This document shows positions 1 to 18,298 of a DNA stretch of 64,000 bases, one piece after another (the stretch's first letter is position 1; each line of letters begins with the position of its first letter). The notes under the pieces were generated by a model that did no database searches, was not told where the DNA came from, and saw nothing but the letters and a program-made list of their open reading frames with translations. Origin of the DNA: Laetmonice hystrix (Eukaryota); NCBI GenBank assembly GCA_965235115.1, contig OZ249436.1:38628001-38692000 (forward strand), in the 5' to 3' direction. The translations under genes and the position numbers were made by a program.

Positions 1-3000
1 TGTATTTAGTGAGATCCTGAAACATTGAGCGATACATCTTTGACGTTCCGGGAGAAAACGAAGTAGGTAGAAGTTAACCCGTACGTAAATCAAAATCTAT
101 CACAGTGGTTTTGGCCAGACGTGTACACTTACATAAAGGATTTCCGGCAACCTAGGATCAAGCAGTCGTGTCTCCTTCTTCAGTTTATCAAGGAAGGCCG
201 AGATAGCTCCTCTAAGACGGCCATCTTTCCTGATATTACGACAGAAAATGAGGCTGTACTATGATCGAGTTACATGTAATTTTCCACTTCCCTAATCCCC
301 AAACCCAGATCTGAGAATCAGTTGCTCTCCCATTAATATCTGCTCCTAAGTGATCCCTTATACTCCATACCCAGAGTGAGACTTATTAGGATATGTAGGT
401 CAGCATGACCCATAAAATCTCCTTTTATTCATGACATATAGTTTGATCACAAAGCCCAAGTATATTCAAGGAAAGCCTCCTGGGCAGCGTACCACAGGCG
501 GTTAACGTCGAAGGTTTTGTAGAGGAGTTTTCCAAGCTTCTTTCGATATTTCCTCGAATGTTTTTCTCTTTGTTCCAGATCCTTAAACACGGAGACGAAG
601 AACTGAAACGAGAATAAATAAATTGGATTTGTTTATCTTTTGGACTTTACTCCAGAATGTTATTAGGTTTCCAATAACGTTTACAATAGGCTGAAATCCT
701 TGGAAAGGGAAAGGATGACTCAACCAAACCTACCTTGAGACATCGGTTATATTCTTTTATCATCAGCAGCTCGATAAGCTCAAGTCCTCTGCGAATTGAA
801 AAAGAACGAATATAAAGTTTATAATAAATGAAGAAAAGAAATATTTTCATTAAGGCAACTAATATGCTTAGGAAATACAGGTATGTATTTTAAATGTGTC
901 CACTTTTACGTACTGTAGCTTGGCCTCTATGATGGCATTCGTCTCTGGACCTGGAGCATGCCGCTCTGTTTTACGCCACTTCTCGACTGTTGCCAGTAAC
1001 GCCTTAGAGTATTCTGTGAGCACATGGCAACTTTAAGTAAGTCATTCAGTGACGTAAGTCATTCAGTGACGTAAGTCATTAAGTGACGTAAGTCATTCAG
1101 TGACGTAACTCATTCAGTGACGTAAGTCATTCAGTGACGTAAGTCATTCAGTGACGTACGTCATTCAGTGACGTAAGTCATTCAGTGACGGGGTTTGTAT
1201 AATAGGAGCCTACAGACATACATGATGCGTGGCCGTAGGAAGGGTGGCAAAGGGGAACGATCCCTTTTAACCACCCCATAAAAACAGTTGCTCCAGATGG
1301 ATGGTTTGTGAAATCACCAGAAGATGATCAAAACAAACATTTAAAAGAGAGAGCGAGAAAGAAAGATTGTTCACCTATCCCCTGATCTGGAGGGAAGGGG
1401 ACGTCATTGTAGCCGTTGATGAGGTTGACGAGAGAGGATGTGATGAGGTGAAGTTCAGTACTGGCACCAAAGAAGCCGTACTTGACGAGACATATAGCCA
1501 GCCTCAGAACCTGAACAAGGCAAAGAGTTCGGTCAGGTTAGCTATACCTGAGTCTACCTTATGGCCCTCGCGAGATACGGTTCGGCGAGTTCAGGTTATT
1601 CAGCGTTTGGTTTCTATTTCGTGTCTATTATTACACAATCCTTGATGTCCAGCTCGGCTAGGTTGGATGTCATCAATTTGATTATTTTTACTTATGTTTG
1701 AGAACCCTAACACCTTGGCCACCCGGCTATCTCTCATTACTTTGCTGAGGTAACTATAGGCGTATACAATTGAAGTACTCTACCTCTTTGATGAGGACGT
1801 TTCTGCCCGGATTGGAAGCCACAAAGACCTTGTTCTCGCCAAGAAAAGCGAAAAGCCACACCCGCATTGTCGGAAAATGGGAATCAAAGTCGTGTGGAAC
1901 CTATAGGAATAACACACGCCACTAACGCACAAACATATTTAATGAGGTTAATTTTCACGTATTTCCATCCCACGAGTTTAGTTCATTGATTTTGTGCTCA
2001 TCAATACAGACTTACGTGGTCAGCCTCCGTTTGGCCGTAGTTTTCCACAGCGATTTCATCATAGACGAAGTTATTGGATGTTACCTCGATGATTGAGTAG
2101 TTGTCACCAACATCCAGGAAAAGACCTTCAAGAACAGAGTTTGTTTCTGTGAGTGTCTACCAAGCAGTGGTTCCTAAGTTTTTACAGGGAAGCGCGAGGT
2201 TGTCGGGAGGTAGGCCTACACACAGACACTTTCCCCAATGGTAAAACTTACCTATGAGTAAATCACAGAATGTAGCCCTGATTCGATCAGGTAAGACCTC
2301 TGAGCGCAGACCCAGGTAGGCGACCTCCCACGTGAAGAATTCACGGTTCCGTGTTATGACCTCTATAGCCACCTGGTTCCGGCCCTGGTTTAGTTTAAAT
2401 GAAATGAAATTTATTAATTATCTCAAGTTTAAAGATACTGCACATTTAGAAATTTGGTAAAAATCTTAATGCGACAATTGATTAAAATTATGATTCATTA
2501 AAAAGTAGGAGTTACTAGTAAATTACATATTAATTCATTTATTAATTAATTATTCATTTTGTTCACCAGAACAACTGACTAACTATTTATTTGGAGTAGC
2601 ATTTGTTGGCACACTATGATACTTCAGATCACGACTTTACTGTTTTACTTACGTAGCAAAGTTTTTTGTACAGAGCAAGCTGTCTCTCCAGGAACGAGTA
2701 GCACTCCTCGCTGTAGGTCGCGTTACTTGGCTAAACAAAATAATAATAAAATACAAAGTGAATCAATCCAATTTATATTACACTCCTTATAAAGTACATT
2801 ATTTTAATAGATCTACATCATTTAGTAGCTCTATTACTTGTGGTGTCAGTTTTGTGTTAATTATATACAAGTCTTGAAAGAAGGTCAATTAACTGCTTTC
2901 ATAAATATCTCGTTCTGGTGTTCGATGCCCATATTGCGTGTTACTATGACGTCAACATAAGACAGTAGGTGTATCATATAGACCCAGACACCGTGATCTT

Positions 3001-6000
3001 AGCAAGCTCACGTAGGTAAAGGTGTGCAGAGTAAGCCATGTGGTCCTGTTGTTGGTGGACACATAAAGTCTGTCAGTCTGCTTCCCTATGTCCTGTCCAA
3101 TCTCGATATGGTACACGCAATCCTACAGTAAGAGAATAACATATTAATGACAAGGCCTTGATGAAGGGTTAAAGAGTATAATATTTTAAATGCTGAGTGA
3201 TGGACGTAGTCTAGGGCCTAGTATAGAATCGGTGCCATCGATGAGTTCAGACTTTACCTTTCGTTTCTGGAGTAGGTTGACGGAGATCTGTGTCTGGTTT
3301 TCGGTCATGGCGATTCCGTTACACACGCTCACCACGCCGAGAAGGTCGAGATAGAGATAATGCTGAAACACGGATACAAGACTGCACGTCGGAGAGGGTC
3401 AAGATAAAGATAATGCTGCAACACGGATACAAGACAGTACGTCAGAGAGGGTCGAGATAAAGGTAATGCTGCAACACGGATACAAGACTGCACGTCGGAG
3501 AGGGTCAAGATAAAGATAATGCTGCAACACGGATACAAGACTGCACGTCGGAGAGGGTCAAGATAAAGATAATGCTACAACACGGATACAAGACTGCACG
3601 TCGGAGAGGGTCAAGATAAAGATAATGCTACAACACGGATACAGACAGCACGTCAGAGAGGGTCGAGATAAAGATAATGCTACAACATGGATACAAGACT
3701 GCACGTCGGAGAGGGTCAAGATAAAGATAATGCTGCAACACGGATGCAGACAGCTTGTCAGAGAGGGTCAAGGAAAAAGGACGGTCGTGGCAGCTATCCA
3801 ATCAACAACTTCCTTAAAAAATACCTTTCATCGATAACAAATGGGACAACAAATTCCAGCAGTGTGCTAACTTAGATATTGCATTTGCCAGGCATGGTTC
3901 CGTGCGTTATGCCCTAAATAAAGTCTCGGCTACGCCTCGATCCTATGCCCTAAATGAAGTCGTAGACACAATAGTGAAAGTAAATATTAAAATATACATT
4001 TTTAAAAATGTGTTTTATTAGCACCTTTTGTTCTCTCAGAAGACCGATGATATCGTCAATCTGTTTCCCGGTGATACGATCCACAATTTTCCGATTGTCC
4101 CGGAGCAGTTCGATCAACATCTGACAACTCTGCAGCCCTACTCCACCCTACACACCAAAACAATGACGCCACTTTAAACTGAAAATGATCATTCATCTAG
4201 AATGACACCTAGGCCTATAGCCATAGTTATATCGCCTGCTGAAAGACATTGCTGAAACAACCTCTTAGTGAGCAGGCTATCTCGATGTGACTTTGATAAC
4301 ATTAAGTGTGTACATATATGGTTCCAGTAAACCGAGTATCGAGTACGCTTTATTCTGAAATTCCATATTGAATTGGGGTATATTAATAAAACATAGATTT
4401 GTGGATGGGAATAGATTATCAGTACTTACCTTTGCCAAGAGCGTAGAGAAGAAGAAGACAATATATTTGGCCATGTACAAGGCATTCTTCTTACTACGTC
4501 CCATCACGTAGCAGTGCAGAACCTCGTATATGGAGCGGAACACCTAGGATTCGCAGGCATGAGATATGTTACATATTTATCACTGAGGTGTTCTTATAGA
4601 TAAGCATGACCAGGCTGGCAGTATCTGGCAGGTTTTTCACAGACAGTACCGTTAATTTTCTGTAACAGCACAAACCTGGGTGAAGTGAGTAAAATCCTTG
4701 AGGCCTTCATGTAACGGCGATCTCAGCAGGTCGACCATCACGTCGACTAACTAATAAAAACAACCAAAAAGGGGAAATTAATAATAAAATAAGGGATGTC
4801 AGGAATTTAAAATGGCATTCAGATATGAATTTAGAAAGGAATATTCCTAATTTCGTTAGTTCTTTTCACACATAATTATACAATCGCAATTGCGGCTCAG
4901 GACAGGGGCTAGAATCCCCTTACGTGTACATTTTTTTGTACTTTTTTCCTTTTTTTCTCATCGAACTTTCTTCCCCTTCTTTTTCTGTTCCCCCTTGGAC
5001 CTCTTTTCAAAAGTCCTGGCCCCGCCCATTTTATACAGTATGTTGCTTTAATGATTGGCAAGATTTTAAAGTATCATAGGGTTACCCTCAGATTCCGTAA
5101 GAGTTTCTGGTGATCCTTCTTCGGTGTACCCTTCTCCATGATGAAGGTTTTCAGTTCATGTAACGTCTACGAATAAAAAGAACATCGGTATGACTATGAG
5201 AGTATTACACTGATCAAGGCAGCCGGAACCGGGTGAGGGGTCATGGGGAACCCCTCCCCCCCCCCTCCAAAAAACCCTTTCAACCAAAAAAAAAAGGATA
5301 GTGTGTCATAATTTTGACTATCAATCTGACAGGCGCTACCCGTGTCAGCTCCGGATCCCACTTCCGATTGAGTATATATCACTTAAATTTTCCAACAGTT
5401 TATAAATATACAATATGGAAAGAAAGAAAATAATGTGTCCGCCAGCTAACATTTCTGCTGAACTTACGAAATGTATACTTTACAGTAATAGTTTGAGTCT
5501 TCCAATTTTAGTTTGAGGTGACCTTGTCTTAGAGAAGAAGAGAGAAACATGCTTACACCAATGATGCTCTGCGTCGACCTTGCATTCAGAAATACGTTTT
5601 CTTCCTTTCTCTATAAGCAAAAAATACACAATAATTCACAGCAGCAGCAAATGGGAGAGAAGTTTGTTAAGTGACTCTGAGGAACTGTTAACGCCAGAGG
5701 GCCGTTAGTGGGACGTACTGCCTGCGTGAGGTCCTTGAGGAAGGGCACCATCCCCGCCACGTAGTTAAAGTTGAACCAGTCTGAGGGCGCCACCTTCTGG
5801 ATGGTGTAGGCGTCAGGGTAACGTCGGGAACTGCTGCCTATCACCTGTACACGGGAAAATATACTGACATAACTCAACTCGGCTTCTTCCCAGGGACAGG
5901 CTTTATTTTGATGTCACTTTTTAATCGTTTACGATCTGTGTAATAGTTTTTAGGCGTTTCCCGTACTTGTATGCACTTTCCTTTTACTAATCATCAAATT

Positions 6001-9000
6001 GATATTTAGATTTATAAAAATGTTATCGTTATTTAAGGGTCTTACCTTCAGCAACGTGGCTCCATCCCATCTCAAGGCGTGCAGGTCGGAGCTCTCCTCA
6101 TCTTGGCACTGCTGACGTTCATACGTATCATCTGTTAACCACAGTTCGAATGGTTAGAAACTCAATTTGTCATGTACGTATCATAATTAACCACAGTTCG
6201 ACTGGTAAAACTCAATTTGTCATGTACGTATCATCTGTTAACCACAGTTCTAACAGTCAGAAACAATATCATTTGTTAACCACAGTTCTAACAGTCATAG
6301 AGCCAATATCATGTGATATAGGTAACCACAGTTCTAACAGTCGGAGACCCGATTTGTTAGGTATGTATTATCTGGCATCCACAGTTCTAACGGTCAGACA
6401 CACAATAGACCATGTATCCGGTGTATATCATCTATCAACCATATCAAAATAACCCGACAGACTCTTGGCGTTTCCTTGGTACCAGTATTACTAGCATTGA
6501 CTTTAGAGGAACTTATTCATCAAGAGACATTATTCATCATTCTTCTCTTTCCTCCTTCTCTGTTGTTATAAGTGTTTTGATATTGCGCACCTATCGGTCC
6601 ATGCAACCAACACCCCGATAAGACATGCTCAATGCGGCAGTCACTTCCACAACTGATATTCATATTCTGTGGTTTCTGAAAGCATTCAATGGGGAAAACA
6701 TATCAATTTAGAGCATTTCTTAAACCTAATGGATAAACACACTTTCGCTTACTTACGATTTACTTATGACTGTGTGTCTTCTCAAATTTAGGGTAATTAT
6801 AGAGTCTGACCTGGGATAGCGAGTACACCCTGAACACTGCCCTGGGGTCACAGCCGTCGGTGGTCAGCGCCACCTGGCCGTCGTCACTGATATACAGGTA
6901 TCGACGTGTGGTCATGTGACGAAACCTGACCGAGTCGTCCCAGTGGAGAACACGTCCGTCTAGGATACTGGTGGCGGCCTCTAGCTGCCAGTACGTGATA
7001 CCAGAACGAGGTTTGTACAGGGTACGAGGGTCGTTCGGGTTGATTTCACGCACCCGCAGGTGAACTGTGGAAAGGAAGGGAATAATTATGTTATTATGTG
7101 AAAAATTTGAGATCCGGCGGAAGCTTGAGAGTGAAGTAATGTGATTGGGAACCAGACAGGAAATGATCAGTGATGATTCTTTGATTTGTGAGGAATCGGC
7201 ACTGAAAAACAGTAAACATTATTACTCATGGGTGAATTGATAAAATTGTTTCTTACTTTTATACTTCATTCATTCTGCATGTAATTCTGCATTCATATAA
7301 ATATAGCTTTTCAACACATGCATCCAAATTATATGTATGGATTAACATTTCTCGTAAAAATGTACAGATATAGAGTAAGTGATATATTAGGTACCATTTT
7401 CTGTTGGTTCCTCCCCAAAGACTCCTTCCGCTGTCAGGAATGCTTCGATGTCTTTGTGAAACAGGCGTACCACATGACCGCCCTGCAGAGATAAACCACT
7501 CGTCAGACCAGCGACTACATTCTCGGTAACATTTATTAAAGTGTAGCCAATTTATTTCTTCACTTCTTTCTTAAAGTACTCTTGTGTATATTTCAGCTAA
7601 AATACATATTGATGTTATTCGAGACTTACCCTGACCAGTCCCTCCGTGTCATGATCAGGACTGGAGTGTTTGACCCAGGTAAAACTGGAACGATCTACTC
7701 CAAGGTTGAGTTCCGAGCTGCCAGAACATGAAGAGGGAAAAATATTCAATATTTGTTTGTTTTTTTTTTAAAAAAAGGTCTCAACTGATGTGAGAGAGAC
7801 AAGTATCAATGATGGCTTCAAGAAGACACATTGAGAATCCATACCCGAATGTGAAGTGGTCAATCTGGTAAGGGTCACTGGCGTGTAAGTAGCATCCAGC
7901 TGATTTTGCACTCTCAAAGGTGACCTGGTCGTAATTTTCAATCTGGAATACAAAACAACACGGCTTAAAAAAAGTCCTTATTTCTTATCATCAAAAATTA
8001 GAATGAGCTTAGACATCGAGTTAACAAAAGTCATTATGATATAAGTTTACTTACGAATTCTCCCTCCACCTTCACCTTGTAGCTCGGCAGGATTCTGAAG
8101 AGGGCGTTCTTGGAGGTGTGAGACTCGAGGCTAACCTGAAATACAACATACAAAAATACGATAAACATGAACACTTTTTGGACGGAAAAGGTAGCGGTAA
8201 TAAGGAACAAGCTAACCTACCATCATTTTACTTTTGTCGACATCACTCGTCTCCGACGTGCTCACGTGGATGAACTTGTTGGTGAACATGTGCCGGAGCT
8301 AGAAGGTAAGGTCAGCAATCGGTAAGTTCGGAATGTTTACAAGCTGTGTGTCAAGACATAATGTATTGGTAGTGTCCTCTGATAGCAACAAAACACTCCC
8401 TACCTGAATGATGTCTTCGGATAACAACAGAACGCTCCTTACCTGGATGGTGTAACAACAGAACGCTCCTTACCTGGATGGTGTAACAACAGAACGCTCC
8501 TTACCTGGATGGTGTAGCAACAGAACGCTCCTTACCTGGATGGTGTAACAACAGAACGCTCCGTACCTGGATGGTGTAACAACAGAAACTCCTTACCTGG
8601 ATGGCGTAACAACAGAGCGCTCCTTACCATGGATGCATGGTGTCCCCTGTTAACAACAACGTGCTCCTTACCTGGATAGTTTTCCTGATAACAACAGAAC
8701 GCCCCTTACCTGGATGGTGTCCCTGGATAACAACAGAACGCTCCTTACCTGGATGGTGTCCCTGGATAACAACAGAACGCTCCTTACCTGGATGATGTCC
8801 CTGATAACAACAACACGCTCCTTACCTGGACGGTGTCCCCAACAACAGAACGCTCCTTACCTGGATGGTGTCCCCAACAACAGAACGCTCCTTACCTGGA
8901 TGGTGTCCCTGGATAACAACGCTCCTTACCTGGATGGTGTCCCTGATAACAACAACACACTCCTTACCTGGATGGTATCTCCGTAGCGGACCCGTTTCCC

Positions 9001-11773
9001 TTGAAGCCGGATCTGTTCAGCCTCGTTGTCCTGCCGTTCGCACTCAGCTGCCACCTGCAGGATAAGTTCATCATCACCGAACAATGATGATCGGTGTTGC
9101 CGACCGAGAGCGCACATATTAATAAAACAGACGCCCGATATTGTATAGGTAAGGCCGACTATTTGTTATCTTCATAGCATACACTGTCCATTGATTTATC
9201 TTTTTAACAATTTTTGACTGGGTTTTCTTGGTAATGAAGAAAGTGGTACAGATGGCACAGATAAAAAATAAAGAAAAGTGCGCTGACCTTGGCTACTGCC
9301 AGGGCCTTCTTGAGGTCCTCGTCATCCGGGTAGTCTCCATGGGCCTCCAGCAGATTCTTGTACTTTTTGGTCAGTTTGTACCGGTTCTGGGACACCACCC
9401 GGAATGTTACGGCTGTAAGTAAAGTTAAGAACGTCTTGGTTAGTTTGTACCGGTTCTGGGACACCACACGGAATGTTACGGCTGCAAGTAAAGTTAAGAA
9501 TCTAATGGTTAGTTTGTACAGGTTCTGGGACACCACACGGAATATGACGGCTACAAGTAAAGTTAAGAATCTATTGGTTAGTTTGTACCGGTTCTGGGAC
9601 ACCACCCGGAATGTGACGGCTGCAAGTAAAGTTAAGAATCTAATGGTTATTTTGTACCGGTTCTGGGACACCACACGGACTGTGACGGCTGCAAGTAAAG
9701 TTCAGAACCTCTTGGTTGGTTTGTACCGGTTCTGGGACACCACACGGAATGTGACGGCTGCAAGTAAAGTTCAGAATTACTTGGTTAGTTTGTACCGGTT
9801 CTGGGACACCACACGGACTGTGACGGCTGCAAGTAAAGTTAAGAAGTTACGAAACTCTTTGTTGGTTTGTACCGGTTCTGGGATACCACACGGAATGTGA
9901 CGGCTGTAAGTAAAGTTAAGAACGTTTTAGTTAGTTTGTACCGGTTCTGGGACACCACACGGAAGGTGACGGCTGTAAGTAAAGTTAAGAACGTTTTGGT
10001 TAGTTTGTACCGGTTCTGGGACACCACACGGAATGTGACGGCTGCAAGTAAAGTTACGAAACTCTTGGTTGGTTTGTTCTGGGACACCACACGGAATGTG
10101 ACGGCTGCAAGTAAAGTTACGAAACTCTTGGTTGGTTTGTTCTGGGACACCACACGGAATGTGACGGCTGCAAGTAAAGTTACGAAACTCTTGGTTGGTT
10201 TGTTCTGGGACACCACACGGAATGTGACGGCTGCAAGTAAAGTTAAGAATCTATTGGTTAGTTTGTACCGGTTCTGGGACACCACACGGAATGCTACGGC
10301 TGCAAGTAAAGTTACGAATCTCTTGGTTGGTTTGTACCGGTTCTGGGACACCACACGGAATGTGACGGCTGCAAGTAAAGTTAAGAATCTATTGGTTAGT
10401 TTGTACCGGTTCTGGGACACCACACGGAATGCTACGGCTGCAAGTAAAGTTACGAATCTCTTGGTTAGTTTGTACCGGTTCTGGGATACCCAGGCACGTA
10501 CCCAGGATTGTGCTTAGAGGGGGGTTCCATCAGGACGAGAGGGCTGCCCGGGGGCTACCTGTGTTTTTGCACCAGTCGACCTGGGGACCGGAGGGGGCCG
10601 GGGGGGGGGTTCCGGAACCCCTGGAACCCCCCCCCCTGGGTACGTGCCTGATACCACACGGAATGTGACGGCTGTAAGTAAAGTTAAGAACGTTTTGGTT
10701 AGTTTGTACCGGTTCTGGGACACCACACGGAATGTGACGGCTGTAAGTAAAGTTAAGCACGTTTTGGTTAGTTTGTACCGGTTCTGGGACACCACACGGA
10801 CTGTGACGGCTGCAAGTAAAGTTAAGAACCTCTTGGTTAGTTTGTACCGGTTCTAGGACACCACTCGGAATGTGTTGGCTGCAAGTAAAGTTAAGAACCT
10901 CTTGGTTGGTTTGTTCTGGGACACCACACGGAATGTGCCGGCTGCAAGTAAAGTTACGAAACTCTTGGTTGGTTTGTTCTGGGACACCACACGGAATGTG
11001 ACGGCTGCAAGTAAAGTTAAAAATCTATTGGTTGGTTTGTACCGGTTCTGGGATACCACACGGAATGTGACGGCTGTAAGTAAAGTTAAGAACGTTTTGG
11101 TTAGTTTGTACCGGTTCTGGGACACCACACGGAATGTGACGGCTGCAAGGAGTGTGGAGGAGGGCGGTCAAGGTTGGCCGTATACGCTAGTGCGGGAAGG
11201 GCTACGGGTGGGGATTATGTACAGGGTAAGACCTACTGCCCTCAACCGAAAGTATCACCTAATCCACCCTGTTCCTGAGGACAATCTCTATATTGTTTGG
11301 AAAAGAAAGGTTGTTTTAAGAGTTTCTATATAAGGGCATTCACACTAAACTCCATTCATTTTCGTCTTTTGTTCGTATTCGATACAATAGGGCTGACATA
11401 AAGCACTCCTCATTCCGAACAAGGTTTACATAATTCAACTTAAATGGGAAATATTATAATAAAAACTGAGGTCTCGATATCATGTTGTTTCTGCACTTAC
11501 CGTGAATATTAGGAATCCCAACTGGACAACCACGGTCCTGCCCCGTGTACACAAATAATCCACTTTTGGCTATGCTGATAAAAAAAAGAAAATATATATA
11601 TTATTATCCAGTATCATGCATGGTTTTTACTGAAAGAAGTATCTCTTATTGGAAAGTCGTAGCTTATAGTAGAGTATTTAGGTAACTAACCTGGTCTTGT
11701 CACTGTTGACGTAGCCACCTGTGTCTTCACAATAGAGACATATGATATCGCCCATACACATGAACTCCGCCAT
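1..11773 (-). CDS. ITPR-like: Divergent inositol 1,4,5-trisphosphate receptor-like (IP3R/RyR superfamily) Ca2+-release channel, N-terminal ~989 aa (suppressor/MIR/RIH region), 30 coding exons, 3' end outside the window
   Basis: Hand-spliced exons, GT-AG and phase-consistent: 11691-11773 (ATG; MAEFMCMGDIICLYCEDTGGYV), 11501-11574, 9288-9412 (FRVVSQNRYK), 8968-9054 (RVRYGDTIQ), 8221-8298 (LRHMFTNKFIHV), 8055-8135, 7845-7942, 7630-7717, 7395-7482 (GGHVVRLFHK), 6811-7064 (WDDSVRFRHMTTRRYL), 6591-6675, 6046-6131, 5719-5844, 5557-5610, 5086-5166 (HQKLLRN), 4676-4750, 4430-4543, 4025-4147 (LLRDNRKIVDRIT), 3258-3362 (YLDLLGVVSVCN), 3012-3122, 2653-2730 (RQLALYKKLC), 2252-2384 (LPDRIRATFCDL), 2016-2125, 1784-1900, 1375-1510, 914-1013, 734-788, 493-602, 133-229, 1-16 (partial). 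The motifs are collinear with remembered IP3R motifs (FLHIGDICSLY, FKLCPMNRY, YGNVIQLLH, GGDVVRLFH, RQKLMRE, LLHNNRKLLE, FLDYLSDLC, QLNLFARMC, LPYDLRASFC). Confidence 0.93.
1037..1190. repeat. 17-bp tandem repeat (GTAAGTCATTCAGTGAC) x ~9, intronic
   Basis: Near-perfect copies read directly; the array ends about 22 nt from the exon-26 acceptor (1014-1015). Confidence 0.95.
3345..3772 (-). repeat. 53-bp tandem repeat x ~8 built from the exon-19 acceptor and exon start
   Basis: Minus-strand unit ...cttgtatccgtgttgcAG|CATTATCTTTATCTTGACC; AG dinucleotides at 3363, 3416, 3469, 3522, 3575, 3628, 3680, 3733. Confidence 0.93.
6120..6395 (-). repeat. Degenerate ~45-52-bp tandem repeat containing the exon-12 acceptor
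   Basis: Recurrent TAACCACAGTTC core; full copy of gttaacAG|ATGATACGTA at 6235 in addition to the used acceptor at 6132. Confidence 0.8.
8395..8978 (-). repeat. 31-39-bp tandem repeat x ~17 built from the exon-4 donor site
   Basis: Minus-strand unit GTAAGGAGCGTTCTGTTGTT(ATCCAGGG)ACACCATCCAG; the junction matches the true exon-4 end ACCATCCAG|GTAAGG at 8968. Confidence 0.95.
9368..11148 (-). repeat. 69-bp (63-bp variant) tandem repeat x ~24 built from the exon-3 acceptor and first ~47 nt of the exon
   Basis: Unit ttcttaactttacttgcAG|CCGTCACATTCCGTGTGGTGTCCCAGAACCGGTACAAACTAACCAA; 69-nt spacing between AGs at 9413 and 9482; explains the repetitive ORFs at 9204-11333. Confidence 0.96.
10491..10650. 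mobile_element. 160-bp MITE (hAT5-like, 5-bp TSD) inserted in the 69-bp array
   Basis: Perfect TIR CAGGCACGTACCCAGG...CCTGGGTACGTGCCTG; TSD ATACC on both sides. Confidence 0.92.
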
Positions 11774-16700: not shown

Positions 16701-18298
16701 AGGTGAATTTAGCTGGTATTTTCCCAATGAAAAGGGCAATAGATTATTGCCAATGGGCAGGAGTATTAGGAGAAATTAGTAAGAACTCAAGAGAGAATGA
16801 TATCTTATTTACAGCTGTCCAGCAAAATATTTCACAAGTATAAAGTCTGTCATTGACCAGAGCACTCAGTAGAGCATCTCGGTGTAGCATAGCTTCTGAC
16901 TTGCCAAATATCTCATGTCATAAATATATTTGAATTCCCCTATAAATTCTCCTATAAATATTCACAGTATGGATTGGACGTAACAGGTTATGGAAGTAAC
17001 AGAACTCTACACATCAGAAACTAATGCCTGAAGTCCTCTCTCATTTTCCTCATGTAGGAGCAACAGTCTGAGCATGTGTAGGCAAATTGTAGGTGTTCTG
17101 ATGTTTTAAAAAGTTTGTAAATCAATGTCTTTTATATGTTTTTACAGGCGACAGTGTTCATACCCTGCACCATGCATATCTCATAGGATATAGCACTGTT
17201 CTTCCTCTTGCCAGGGATACTTGCCGTGCGATATTTCGTGTCCTAAAAGATGAGCATATGAAGGTAATTTTATAAAGTTTAATTTTATGGGTAAATTATT
17301 GAATTAAATTTCATTACGACTTAGCTTGTTATTATGATAGTCGACTTTATATTTGTGATTATTTTGTATTAATTTGTGTATGTGCGTGCGTACATGAATC
17401 TATTTTATTTCTATCAGATACCAAGCACCAGAGTGGGAGGCAATAGCAAGAGGCTTCCAACGTCGATGGGACTTCCCCAATACACTAGGAGCTGTTGACG
17501 GGAAGCATATCAGGATCAGATGCCCAATAGGGTCAGGATCCGTATACTACAACTATAAGAACTACTATTCTCTAGTCCTGCTCGCTGCAGTCGACAGTGA
17601 TTACCGCTTTGTATATGTCGACGTAGGGTCGGAAGGAAGAGCATCGGATTCAACCATATGGAAAGAAGGCGATTTCTATAAAGATATCTGTTCAGAAACA
17701 AACGTTTTGACCCCCCCCCCCCGCCAAAGAAATTGCCAGGCTGCAAGGATCGTCTGCCATACTATTTCGTGGGAGACGATGCTTTTGCATTAGGGGAACA
17801 CATGATGAAACATTTCCCTTCCAAGAGTCCGATGTACGCTGAACGGGTCTACAACAACCGGCTTAGCAGAGCCAAACGCGTTGTTGAAAACTCGTTTGGC
17901 ATGCTCGCCAACAGGCTTCGGATCTTACATCGGCAACAGGACATGGAACCAGAAGGTGTAAAAGTCACTGTAATGACCATGGCAGTCCTCCACAACTTCT
18001 TAAGAAGTAAGTCCAAGTCAGACTACATGGCCAAGGGTCAGGTGGATTGGGAAGACCGTAACCATGATGTCCTTCTTCGTGAGTGGAGGGCAACTGGGCA
18101 GTTGGACAGCTTGGGACACATGAAGGTGAGAAACCAAGTCATTACGTGAAAGAAGTCAGGAACAGCATCCGGCGGTGGTGTATAAGTAAAGATGGAAAGG
18201 TCCCTTGGCAGGATGAGCAAGTTCGCAAGATGAGGGAAGATGAAGAGGCTGAAGAAACCGAGTATGGAAAGGGATGCTTAAGGACAGGTCGTGACTAG
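13738..18298 (+). pseudogene. PIF/Harbinger (HARBI1/DDE_Tnp_4-type) transposase pseudogene, 4 exons
   Basis: Exons 13738-13932, 14548-14713 (IRMSP...ERLSLTLRYLAHG, in-frame TAA at 14653), 17148-17263, 17418-~18298 (WDFPNTLGAVDGKHIRI, YYNYKNYYSLVL, VGDDAF, YNNRLSRAKRVVENSFGML); frameshifts near 17430 and 18140. Confidence 0.92.
15213..16560. mobile_element. 1.35-kb composite MITE (5-bp TSD) in transposase intron 2, with nested related MITE fragments
   Basis: Perfect TIR CAGGCCCGTAGCCAGG...CCTGGCTACGGGCCTG; TSD CTACA. Confidence 0.9.

What the first reader, a model, noticed from the sequence alone, without database searches (positions are those of the whole stretch)
8395..8978. Donor array whose every unit is GT...AG bounded: a chain of ~17 recursive-splice-like sites
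Seen: on the gene strand the unit reads GTAAGGAGCGTTCTGTTGTTACACCATCCAG (31 nt, variants to 39 nt). It starts with a consensus donor, has a U-rich stretch and ends in CAG, so most unit junctions are CAG|GTAAGG. Established: AG|GT juxtaposition defines recursive (ratchet) splice sites, and tandem duplication of an AG|GT segment is a classical model for intron gain. Inference: splicing from the true donor (8967) to any internal CAG regenerates the same exon-4 end and a fresh donor, so the array could be removed stepwise with no coding change. Using a later donor without ratcheting adds 38 nt for the first unit, a frameshift.
Basis: partly seen in the sequence, partly recalled or inferred. Interest (0 to 1): 0.82.

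Follow-up and report, generated by a model that had tools for sequence, protein, structure and literature searches.

The report
Repeated splice donors in ITPR-like intron
In a calcium-channel gene of an invertebrate, a short piece of DNA covering the end of an exon and its splice signal has been copied 16 times in a row, a known kind of repeat that is common in this genome and most likely ignored by the splicing machinery rather than used as a chain of stepwise cut sites.

Summary
The array is real: minus strand 8967-8404, 16 units of 30-44 nt plus a partial 17th, 15 of 16 junctions CAG|GT, in intron 4 (669 nt) of an IP3-receptor-like gene. Each unit is the intron's first ~25 nt plus a copy of exon 4's last 9-13 nt, so the AG is simply the exon's own end. 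This is a 'mirage' or donor-reiterating minisatellite, as in lancelet Adh3 and globins and in human F7 and CBS. It is common here: 20 of 452 donors and 18 of 452 acceptors in nine paralogs carry one, with no excess of AG-ending units (9 of 20 vs 208 of 432). The intron is old (7 of 9 paralog models) and would be 105 nt without the array, so this is neither intron gain nor a long intron needing ratchets. Against my reading, six 30-31-nt units score as acceptors at the 49th-73rd percentile of true sites, above the real acceptor (15th) and above seven other AG|GT arrays, so occasional recursive use is not excluded. No RNA run was listed, so splicing is untested. The scan noted mirages earlier elsewhere in this genome. 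Verdict: new member of a known kind.

The parts
8968..9054 (-). Coding exon 4 (87 nt, phase 0/0) of an ITPR-like gene. It ends in the codons G-D-T-I-Q; its last 9-13 nt are the template for the tail of every repeat unit.
   Evidence: join to exon 5 without gaps in 34 of 34 homologs aligned over this stretch
8962..8967 (-). Authentic donor of intron 4 (CAG|GTAAGG), 93rd percentile of true donors
8628..8967 (-). Units 1-9 (34-44 nt). Units 1, 2, 5, 6, 7 and 8 carry a second, stronger YAG 13 nt before the CAG|GT junction. Units 3-4 (35 nt) have lost it. Unit 9 ends in ATG.
8443..8627 (-). Units 10-15 (30-31 nt, an 8-nt deletion variant, homogenised). Their CAG|GT junctions are the best recursive-site candidates (acceptor score 49th-73rd percentile of true acceptors).
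8404..8442 (-). Unit 16 (39 nt, diverged)
8299..8403 (-). Partial 17th unit running into unique intron. This 105-nt stretch is the probable pre-array intron (inference). It holds a YTNAY branch-like motif and the true acceptor at 8299 (15th percentile).
8221..8298 (-). Coding exon 5 (78 nt)
9367..11149 (-). Sister acceptor mirage in intron 2 of the same gene (69-nt unit, 23 spare acceptors, interrupted near 10490-10652). Context, not part of the finding.

Best explanation
A locus-private minisatellite arose by tandem duplication of a ~38-nt segment spanning the exon 4/intron 4 boundary of an ITPR-like gene. The trigger was probably slippage between the exon end and a similar short motif about 30 nt into the intron (inferred). 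It then grew by unequal exchange, with a 31-nt deletion variant spreading in the 3' half, and swelled a ~105-nt intron to 669 nt. Because the exon ends in CAG, every copy reads CAG|GT. The first donor is chosen because only it closes a complete exon, and the intron is normally removed in one step 8968->8298. The later donors and AGs are mostly silent pseudo-sites, and any leak is low-level noise whose products mostly carry premature stops. Shown: anatomy, exon origin of the tail, age of the intron, frequency of such arrays, no AG enrichment. Inferred: the mutational route and the splicing outcome (by analogy to F7, CBS and lancelet mirages).
For: The unit tail matches the exon end; Tandem Repeats Finder overlap into the exon is 9 nt. 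Last donor to acceptor is 105 nt; the neighbouring paralog's same intron is 115 nt; the 5th percentile of 457 introns is 108 nt. The same intron is present in phase 0 in 7 of 9 paralog models; one other paralog (C6a) has its own unrelated donor mirage there. 20 of 452 donors and 18 of 452 acceptors carry mirages. AG-ending exons: 9 of 20 mirage donors vs 208 of 432 others, Fisher p=0.82. GT is kept just as fully in arrays with no AG (34 of 34, 23 of 23, 21 of 21 copies), so GT retention is no sign of ratchet function. Junction-spanning arrays number 37 of 113, against 33.7 expected under random placement when the partial copy is counted. 34 of 34 homologs show no gap at the join. The array matched only itself in the genome and has no unusual RNA fold (z +1.38). 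In human F7 only the most upstream of identical donors is used (PMC1557585). Lancelet mirages did not disturb splicing (PMC3087553).
Against: Six of the 15 CAG|GT sites score at the 49th-73rd percentile of true acceptors while the real acceptor is at the 15th. Of 8 donor arrays with AG|GT copies this one is the most acceptor-like (median 49th percentile vs 0-15th). Simulated donor mirages reach that score in 1.7% of cases (4.5% if the exon ends CAG), about 0.15 for one of nine; the threshold was chosen after the fact. Both shorter unit types lost the competing upstream AG, which could reflect selection. Unlike spare acceptors in acceptor arrays, these AGs have strong donors downstream, so exon definition does not obviously silence them (inference). 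One placement model gave an excess of junction-spanning arrays (37 vs 22.3, P=0.0002). In CBS and 6-16 two pseudo-donors are used (PMC1557585 introduction).
Confidence: 0.8

Rival explanations
1. Recursive (ratchet) removal. The spliceosome regularly joins exon 4 to a CAG ending one of units 10-15, regenerates the donor and removes the rest in a second step. Steps would span many units, not one unit at a time.
For: AG|GT at 15 of 16 junctions. Acceptor scores 7.4-8.7 for units 10-15 and regenerated donors at the 75th-93rd percentile. The U/G-rich words in the unit are the ones enriched before true acceptors here (TGTTG, TTGTT). Recursive lariats occur in short human introns, though less often than conventional ones (PMC10156609, passages).
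Against: No need: the intron is 669 nt, whereas fly recursive introns are at least 11 kb with segments of at least 2.6 kb (10.1101/006163, passages). 0 of 15 sites have TT at -6/-5 against 196 of 197 fly ratchets. 0 of 15 have a YTNAY motif at -43..-14 against 238 of 415 true acceptors; this is a weak discriminator (46% of decoys) and the copies are not independent. Six junctions have a stronger AG 13 nt upstream that would add a frameshifting 13 nt. Single units (30-44 nt) are shorter than all 457 high-confidence introns, though the aligner's floor was 55 nt. If re-splicing failed, every internal acceptor tested (22 of 22) gives a premature stop. The EJC represses regenerated sites in flies (PMC8184009). 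No AG enrichment across arrays.
Confidence: 0.1
2. The array acts as a splicing rheostat. Spare donors or short pseudo-exons are used at appreciable rates, giving stop-containing transcripts (or rare in-frame 10-43-aa inserts), so that unit number tunes receptor level.
For: Pseudo-donors are used in human CBS and 6-16. 9 of 141 internal acceptor-donor pairs are in frame and stop-free. One contig of run X3, anchored in exon 4, shows a different first unit (table 5c).
Against: All 16 direct alternative donors are unproductive. 34 of 34 homologs have no insert at this join. In F7 the pseudo-sites do not compete with the first donor. Nothing sets this array apart from 19 other donor arrays as regulatory.
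Confidence: 0.07
3. Intron gain in progress by tandem duplication of an AG|GT segment.
For: The model is established for exonic AGGT duplications (PMC3443670, passages) and was proposed for mirages (PMC3087553). The array offers raw material.
Against: The duplicated segment is mostly intronic and lies inside an intron already shared by 7 of 9 paralog models. No new exon is supported by homologs.
Confidence: 0.02
4. Assembly artefact.
For: Short tandem arrays can be mis-assembled, and no listed contig spans the whole array.
Against: Units differ in ordered, sub-typed ways. Contigs of three DNA-like runs show raised depth over the array and pieces matching its inside and both ends; these runs may come from the same sample as the assembly.
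Confidence: 0.01

Closest known systems
'Mirage' minisatellites of lancelets (Adh3, globins BflGb6/BflGb9, troponin C, PGBD5). Seen: passages of PMC3087553 and PMC3902484. The original Adh3 paper was not held.
   Same: Unit spans an exon-intron boundary; both 5' and 3' boundaries are duplicated in the same gene; unit length in the reported 10-160 bp range; homogenised interior with a diverged end unit.
   Different: The host is probably a spiralian invertebrate, not a lancelet (inferred from the names of the best homologs; species not determined). Part of this array gives unusually acceptor-like AG|GT junctions. No RT-PCR here.
Human donor-reiterating VNTRs: F7 intron 7 (37 bp, 5-9 copies), CBS intron 13 (15-20 copies), 6-16, lamin B2, PDGF. 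Seen: abstract, section 6 and passages of PMC1557585.
   Same: First unit spans the donor and identical pseudo-donors follow; similar unit size and copy number.
   Different: The F7 junction reads UGG/GU, so it forms no AG|GT. Here the exon ends in CAG, so the units also look like acceptors. Site use was measured there and not here.
Recursive splice (ratchet) sites of Drosophila and human introns. Seen: passages of 10.1101/006163 and PMC10156609.
   Same: Juxtaposed AG|GT that would regenerate a donor as a zero-length exon.
   Different: Proven sites lie mostly in very long introns, are spaced by kilobases, have a strong pyrimidine tract (TT at -6/-5 in flies), are conserved, and have junction or lariat evidence. 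Here the sites are 30-44 nt apart in a 669-nt intron, lineage-private, with no RNA evidence.
Intron gain by tandem genomic duplication of AGGT (Rogers model). Seen: passages of PMC3443670.
   Same: Tandem duplication creates new AG|GT pairs.
   Different: The model concerns an exonic segment making a new intron; here an existing, old intron was lengthened.

Membership tests
Mirage minisatellite | Repeat unit spans an exon-intron boundary | tested here: met
   Unit tail copies the last 9-13 nt of exon 4
Mirage minisatellite | Tandem copies duplicate the splice signal | tested here: met
   17 donor-like sites, 16 of them spare
Mirage minisatellite | Minisatellite unit size, with concerted evolution inside and a diverged boundary unit | tested here: met
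   30-44 nt; units 12-15 nearly identical; units 16-17 diverged
Mirage minisatellite | Length or allelic instability | tested here: inconclusive
   One exon-anchored contig of run X3 has a different first unit; contigs cannot count units
Mirage minisatellite | Mature mRNA unaffected | not testable with these tools
   No RNA holder listed; indirect only: 34 of 34 homologs without a gap at the join
Donor-reiterating VNTR (F7/CBS type) | First unit spans the donor and identical pseudo-donors follow | tested here: met
Donor-reiterating VNTR (F7/CBS type) | Most upstream donor used exclusively or mainly | not testable with these tools
   No RNA; all 16 alternatives would be unproductive
Recursive splice site | Juxtaposed AG|GT regenerating a donor | tested here: met
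   15 of 16 junctions
Recursive splice site | Strong 3' splice site (pyrimidine tract) | tested here: inconclusive
   6 of 15 sites at the 49th-73rd percentile, 2 at the 33rd-37th, 7 at the 9th-22nd
Recursive splice site | TT at -6/-5 (fly ratchets) and a branch motif upstream | tested here: not met
   0 of 15 TT (read; fly figure); 0 of 15 YTNAY (weak discriminator in this genome)
Recursive splice site | Long host intron, large removed segments | tested here: not met
   669-nt intron, 30-44-nt spacing vs at least 11 kb and 2.6 kb in flies; short human cases exist
Recursive splice site | Evolutionary conservation of the site | tested here: inconclusive
   This array is absent from the same intron in 6 of 6 paralogs; orthologs of related species were not available
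Recursive splice site | Intermediate junction reads or lariats | not testable with these tools
   No RNA holder listed
Intron gain by tandem genomic duplication | New intron absent from homologs, made from a duplicated exonic AGGT segment | tested here: not met
   Intron present in phase 0 in 7 of 9 paralog models

The most novel reading that the evidence does not exclude
A donor mirage has drifted or been selected into a working recursive array. The 31-nt variant lost the competing AG and pulled the U-rich stretch next to CAG|GT, and units 10-15 now serve as ratchet points through which this 669-nt intron is regularly removed in two or more steps. This would show minisatellite turnover creating recursive splice sites, with allele-dependent site number.
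Probability: 0.1. Interest if true: 0.6.

Novelty: new member of a known kind. Interest (0 to 1): 0.17.

Why it matters
As the ordinary case it is one more splice-junction minisatellite. It adds a count for a probable spiralian: about 4% of donors and 4% of acceptors in one gene family carry such arrays, so mirages are not a lancelet oddity. It is a ready-made natural test of how a spliceosome picks the first of 17 near-identical donors when strong spare acceptors lie between them, a situation that F7 lacks. Only if RNA showed regular stepwise removal would it bear on how recursive sites originate.

Tried and rejected
RNA evidence: no RNA holder listed, which says nothing on expression or splicing. 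The three listed runs are contigs that cover exons and introns alike. Single-letter differences inside the array in those contigs may be misplaced units and were not used. A word-indexed protein search with one exon found nothing; the HMMER search did. Pfam named only the MIR domain in 1 of 5 exons. RNA folding of 8280-9000 is no better than shuffles (18 of 20 fold as well). A dispersed-repeat origin was not supported: only the self match (that search skips very common words). Enrichment of arrays at junctions depends on the model: significant, absent in all nine settings, so I do not claim it. A minimum intron size could not be fixed: with the floor lowered to 25 nt, 33 of 631 unfiltered gaps were under 80 nt and 11 under 50 nt, many with poor donors and probably alignment artefacts. 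Per-column variation across 17 donor arrays showed no special conservation of AG or GT. Rows dropped: 5 of 457 introns where the aligner placed an exon inside an array; 167 of 624 modelled introns failed the confidence filter; 8 of 42 alignments were to a second MIR repeat. Literature: no paper held all of 'tandem repeat', 'exon-intron boundar', 'splice site duplicat'. 'recursive splicing' plus 'minisatellite' gave 2 papers; passages of one (PMC13196383) do not link the two, and the other I saw only as a listing. The annelid search gave 1 paper, whose passages show no junction-spanning repeat. These searches do not cover subscription journals. The original mirage paper and the 6-16 paper were not held. 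No supplements were read.

Full report
Observation. Tandem Repeats Finder reports 8381-8981, period 31, 17 copies. On the minus strand there are 17 donor-like starts from 8967 to 8403, bounding 16 full units of 30-44 nt. 15 of the 16 junctions read CAG|GT, and unit 9 ends in ATG. CAGGTAAG occurs 16 times on both strands of the window, 14 times in this array. The array matched only itself in the 627-Mb genome.

Host gene. Exons at 11773-11691, 11574-11501, 9412-9288, 9054-8968, 8298-8221 and onward form an open frame. One exon hits Pfam MIR. The best relatives are IP3-receptor-like proteins of molluscs, a flatworm, a nemertean, an annelid and a hemichordate (8 proteins looked up), with Ins145_P3_rec, MIR and RIH domains. 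The host is therefore probably a spiralian invertebrate (inference). A spliced protein-to-genome aligner written here recovered about 65 exons and the 8968->8298 join independently of my hand model. 34 of 34 homologs aligned over this join (of 160 proteins held) have no gap within 5 residues.

What the unit is. Aligned units consist of the first ~25 nt of intron 4 followed by a tail that copies the last 9-13 nt of exon 4. The AG before each spare GT is thus the exon's own CAG (Gln codon), not a separately evolved acceptor. Units 10-15 are an 8-nt deletion variant and nearly identical; units 16-17 are diverged. From the last donor to the acceptor is 105 nt, close to the 115-nt intron at the same place in the neighbouring paralog. 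I infer that slippage between the exon end and a similar motif ~30 nt into the intron seeded the array, which then expanded a short intron sixfold.

This is a described class. [quoted passage not shown] I knew the term from memory and confirmed it in those passages; the original paper was not held. In human F7 a 37-bp unit spanning the exon 7 donor is repeated 5-9 times. Only the most upstream donor is used, and knocking donors out one by one activates the next (PMC1557585, abstract and section 6). Its introduction lists CBS and 6-16, where two pseudo-donors are also used, and lamin B2 and PDGF, where none is. An earlier scan note pointed me to the F7 paper.

How common it is here. I fetched eight paralogs and modelled nine genes: 624 introns, 457 passing a confidence filter. 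23 donors and 20 acceptors had junction-spanning copies. After dropping 5 introns where the aligner put an exon inside an array, 20 of 452 donors and 18 of 452 acceptors remain. The window gene itself has two donor and five acceptor calls. The intron 4 position is shared in phase 0 by 7 of 9 models, with lengths 115-1867 nt, and paralog C6a has an unrelated donor mirage at that very site. The intron is therefore older than the array, which rules out intron gain in the sense of PMC3443670 (passages). Arrays span a junction in 37 of 113 cases; random seeding predicts 22 or 34 depending on how the seed is defined, so no targeting is claimed.

Tests of the ratchet idea that go against it. If AG|GT units were favoured, donor arrays should prefer AG-ending exons; they do not (9 of 20 vs 208 of 432, p=0.82). 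Full retention of GT is seen equally in arrays without AG. Fly ratchets sit in introns of at least 11 kb, are at least 2.6 kb apart and have TT at -6/-5 in 196 of 197 cases (10.1101/006163, passages); none of the 15 sites here has TT there. None has a YTNAY motif at -43..-14, against 238 of 415 true acceptors and 46% of decoys (weak, and the copies are not independent). Six junctions have a stronger AG 13 nt upstream. Single units are far below the 108-nt 5th percentile of intron length, so unit-by-unit removal is unlikely, although a true minimum could not be set. An internal acceptor used without re-splicing gives a premature stop in 22 of 22 cases, and the exon junction complex represses regenerated sites in flies (PMC8184009, abstract and section 9).

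Tests that favour it. A weight matrix trained on the other 456 introns puts the six junctions of units 10-15 at the 49th-73rd percentile of true acceptors and the 95th-98th of decoy YAGs, while the real acceptor is at the 15th. Simulated donor mirages reach such a score in 1.7% of cases (4.5% with CAG), about 0.15 for one in nine, with a threshold chosen after the fact. That is suggestive, not significant. Sites with both good acceptor and donor scores also occur by chance in array-free introns (21 in 204 kb). Human data show recursive lariats in introns under 1 kb, but as the rarer, probably stochastic route (PMC10156609, passages).

Consequences of other choices. The second donor frameshifts (+38), and all 15 later donors read through a stop at codon 14. 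9 of 141 internal acceptor-donor pairs would give in-frame, stop-free inserts, but homologs have none. So any productive transcript must end up with the 8968->8298 join, in one step or several.

RNA. No RNA run was listed. The three listed runs behave as genomic contigs. One exon-anchored contig in X3 has a different first unit, a hint of allelic turnover.

Verdict. This is a donor mirage minisatellite, one of dozens in this gene family and a new member of a known kind. One-step splicing from the first donor is most likely (0.8). Regular recursive removal through units 10-15 remains possible (0.1) and is directly testable. Earlier scan notes report mirages elsewhere in this genome, and arrays of complete mini-introns in tiny-intron fungi; those differ because each unit there is reported to be a whole intron of normal size for its genome.

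Noticed in passing
window 9367-11149 (-), intron 2: Acceptor mirage with a 69-nt unit and 23 spare acceptors, most scoring as well as the real one. The four nearest (9481, 9550, 9619, 9688) are in frame and stop-free with exon 3 and would add 23-aa repeats if used; aligned homologs show no such insert.
   Followed up: partly
window about 10490-10652: A high-copy G/C-run-rich insert interrupts the intron 2 array; depth reaches thousands-fold over single copy in the laid contigs.
   Followed up: no
window 3339-3772 and 6122-6264 (-): Two more acceptor mirages in the same gene (introns 18 and 11; 53-nt and ~50-nt units).
   Followed up: partly
L009 about 4880-5230 (G000:C6, paralog): An independent donor mirage at the same exon 4 donor in a paralog: three extra copies of ~34 exon bases plus intron start, with an unrelated unit.
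   Followed up: yes
G000:C6, paralogs C6a (intron 22 of its model) and C6b (intron 11 of its model): Two paralog models show the same acceptor context with a 39-nt mirage, suggesting an array older than their split or gene conversion.
   Followed up: no
G000:C1 about 38.52-38.57 Mb, neighbouring paralog, intron 5: A donor mirage in which 0 of 20 copies keep the GT, the opposite of the window array.
   Followed up: no
G000 contigs C1, C6, C7, C10: At least nine divergent ITPR-like paralogs with about 65-70 exons each; tandem arrays lie in 97 of 452 of their introns, about 72 kb of 254 kb of intron.
   Followed up: partly
window 1037-1190: A 17-nt array in intron 25 ending just before the acceptor; on the non-coding strand each unit begins with a perfect donor-like GTAAGT.
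   Followed up: no
window 17682-18149 (+): A 155-codon open frame that looks like a Harbinger-type DDE transposase fragment (label recalled, not tested).
   Followed up: no
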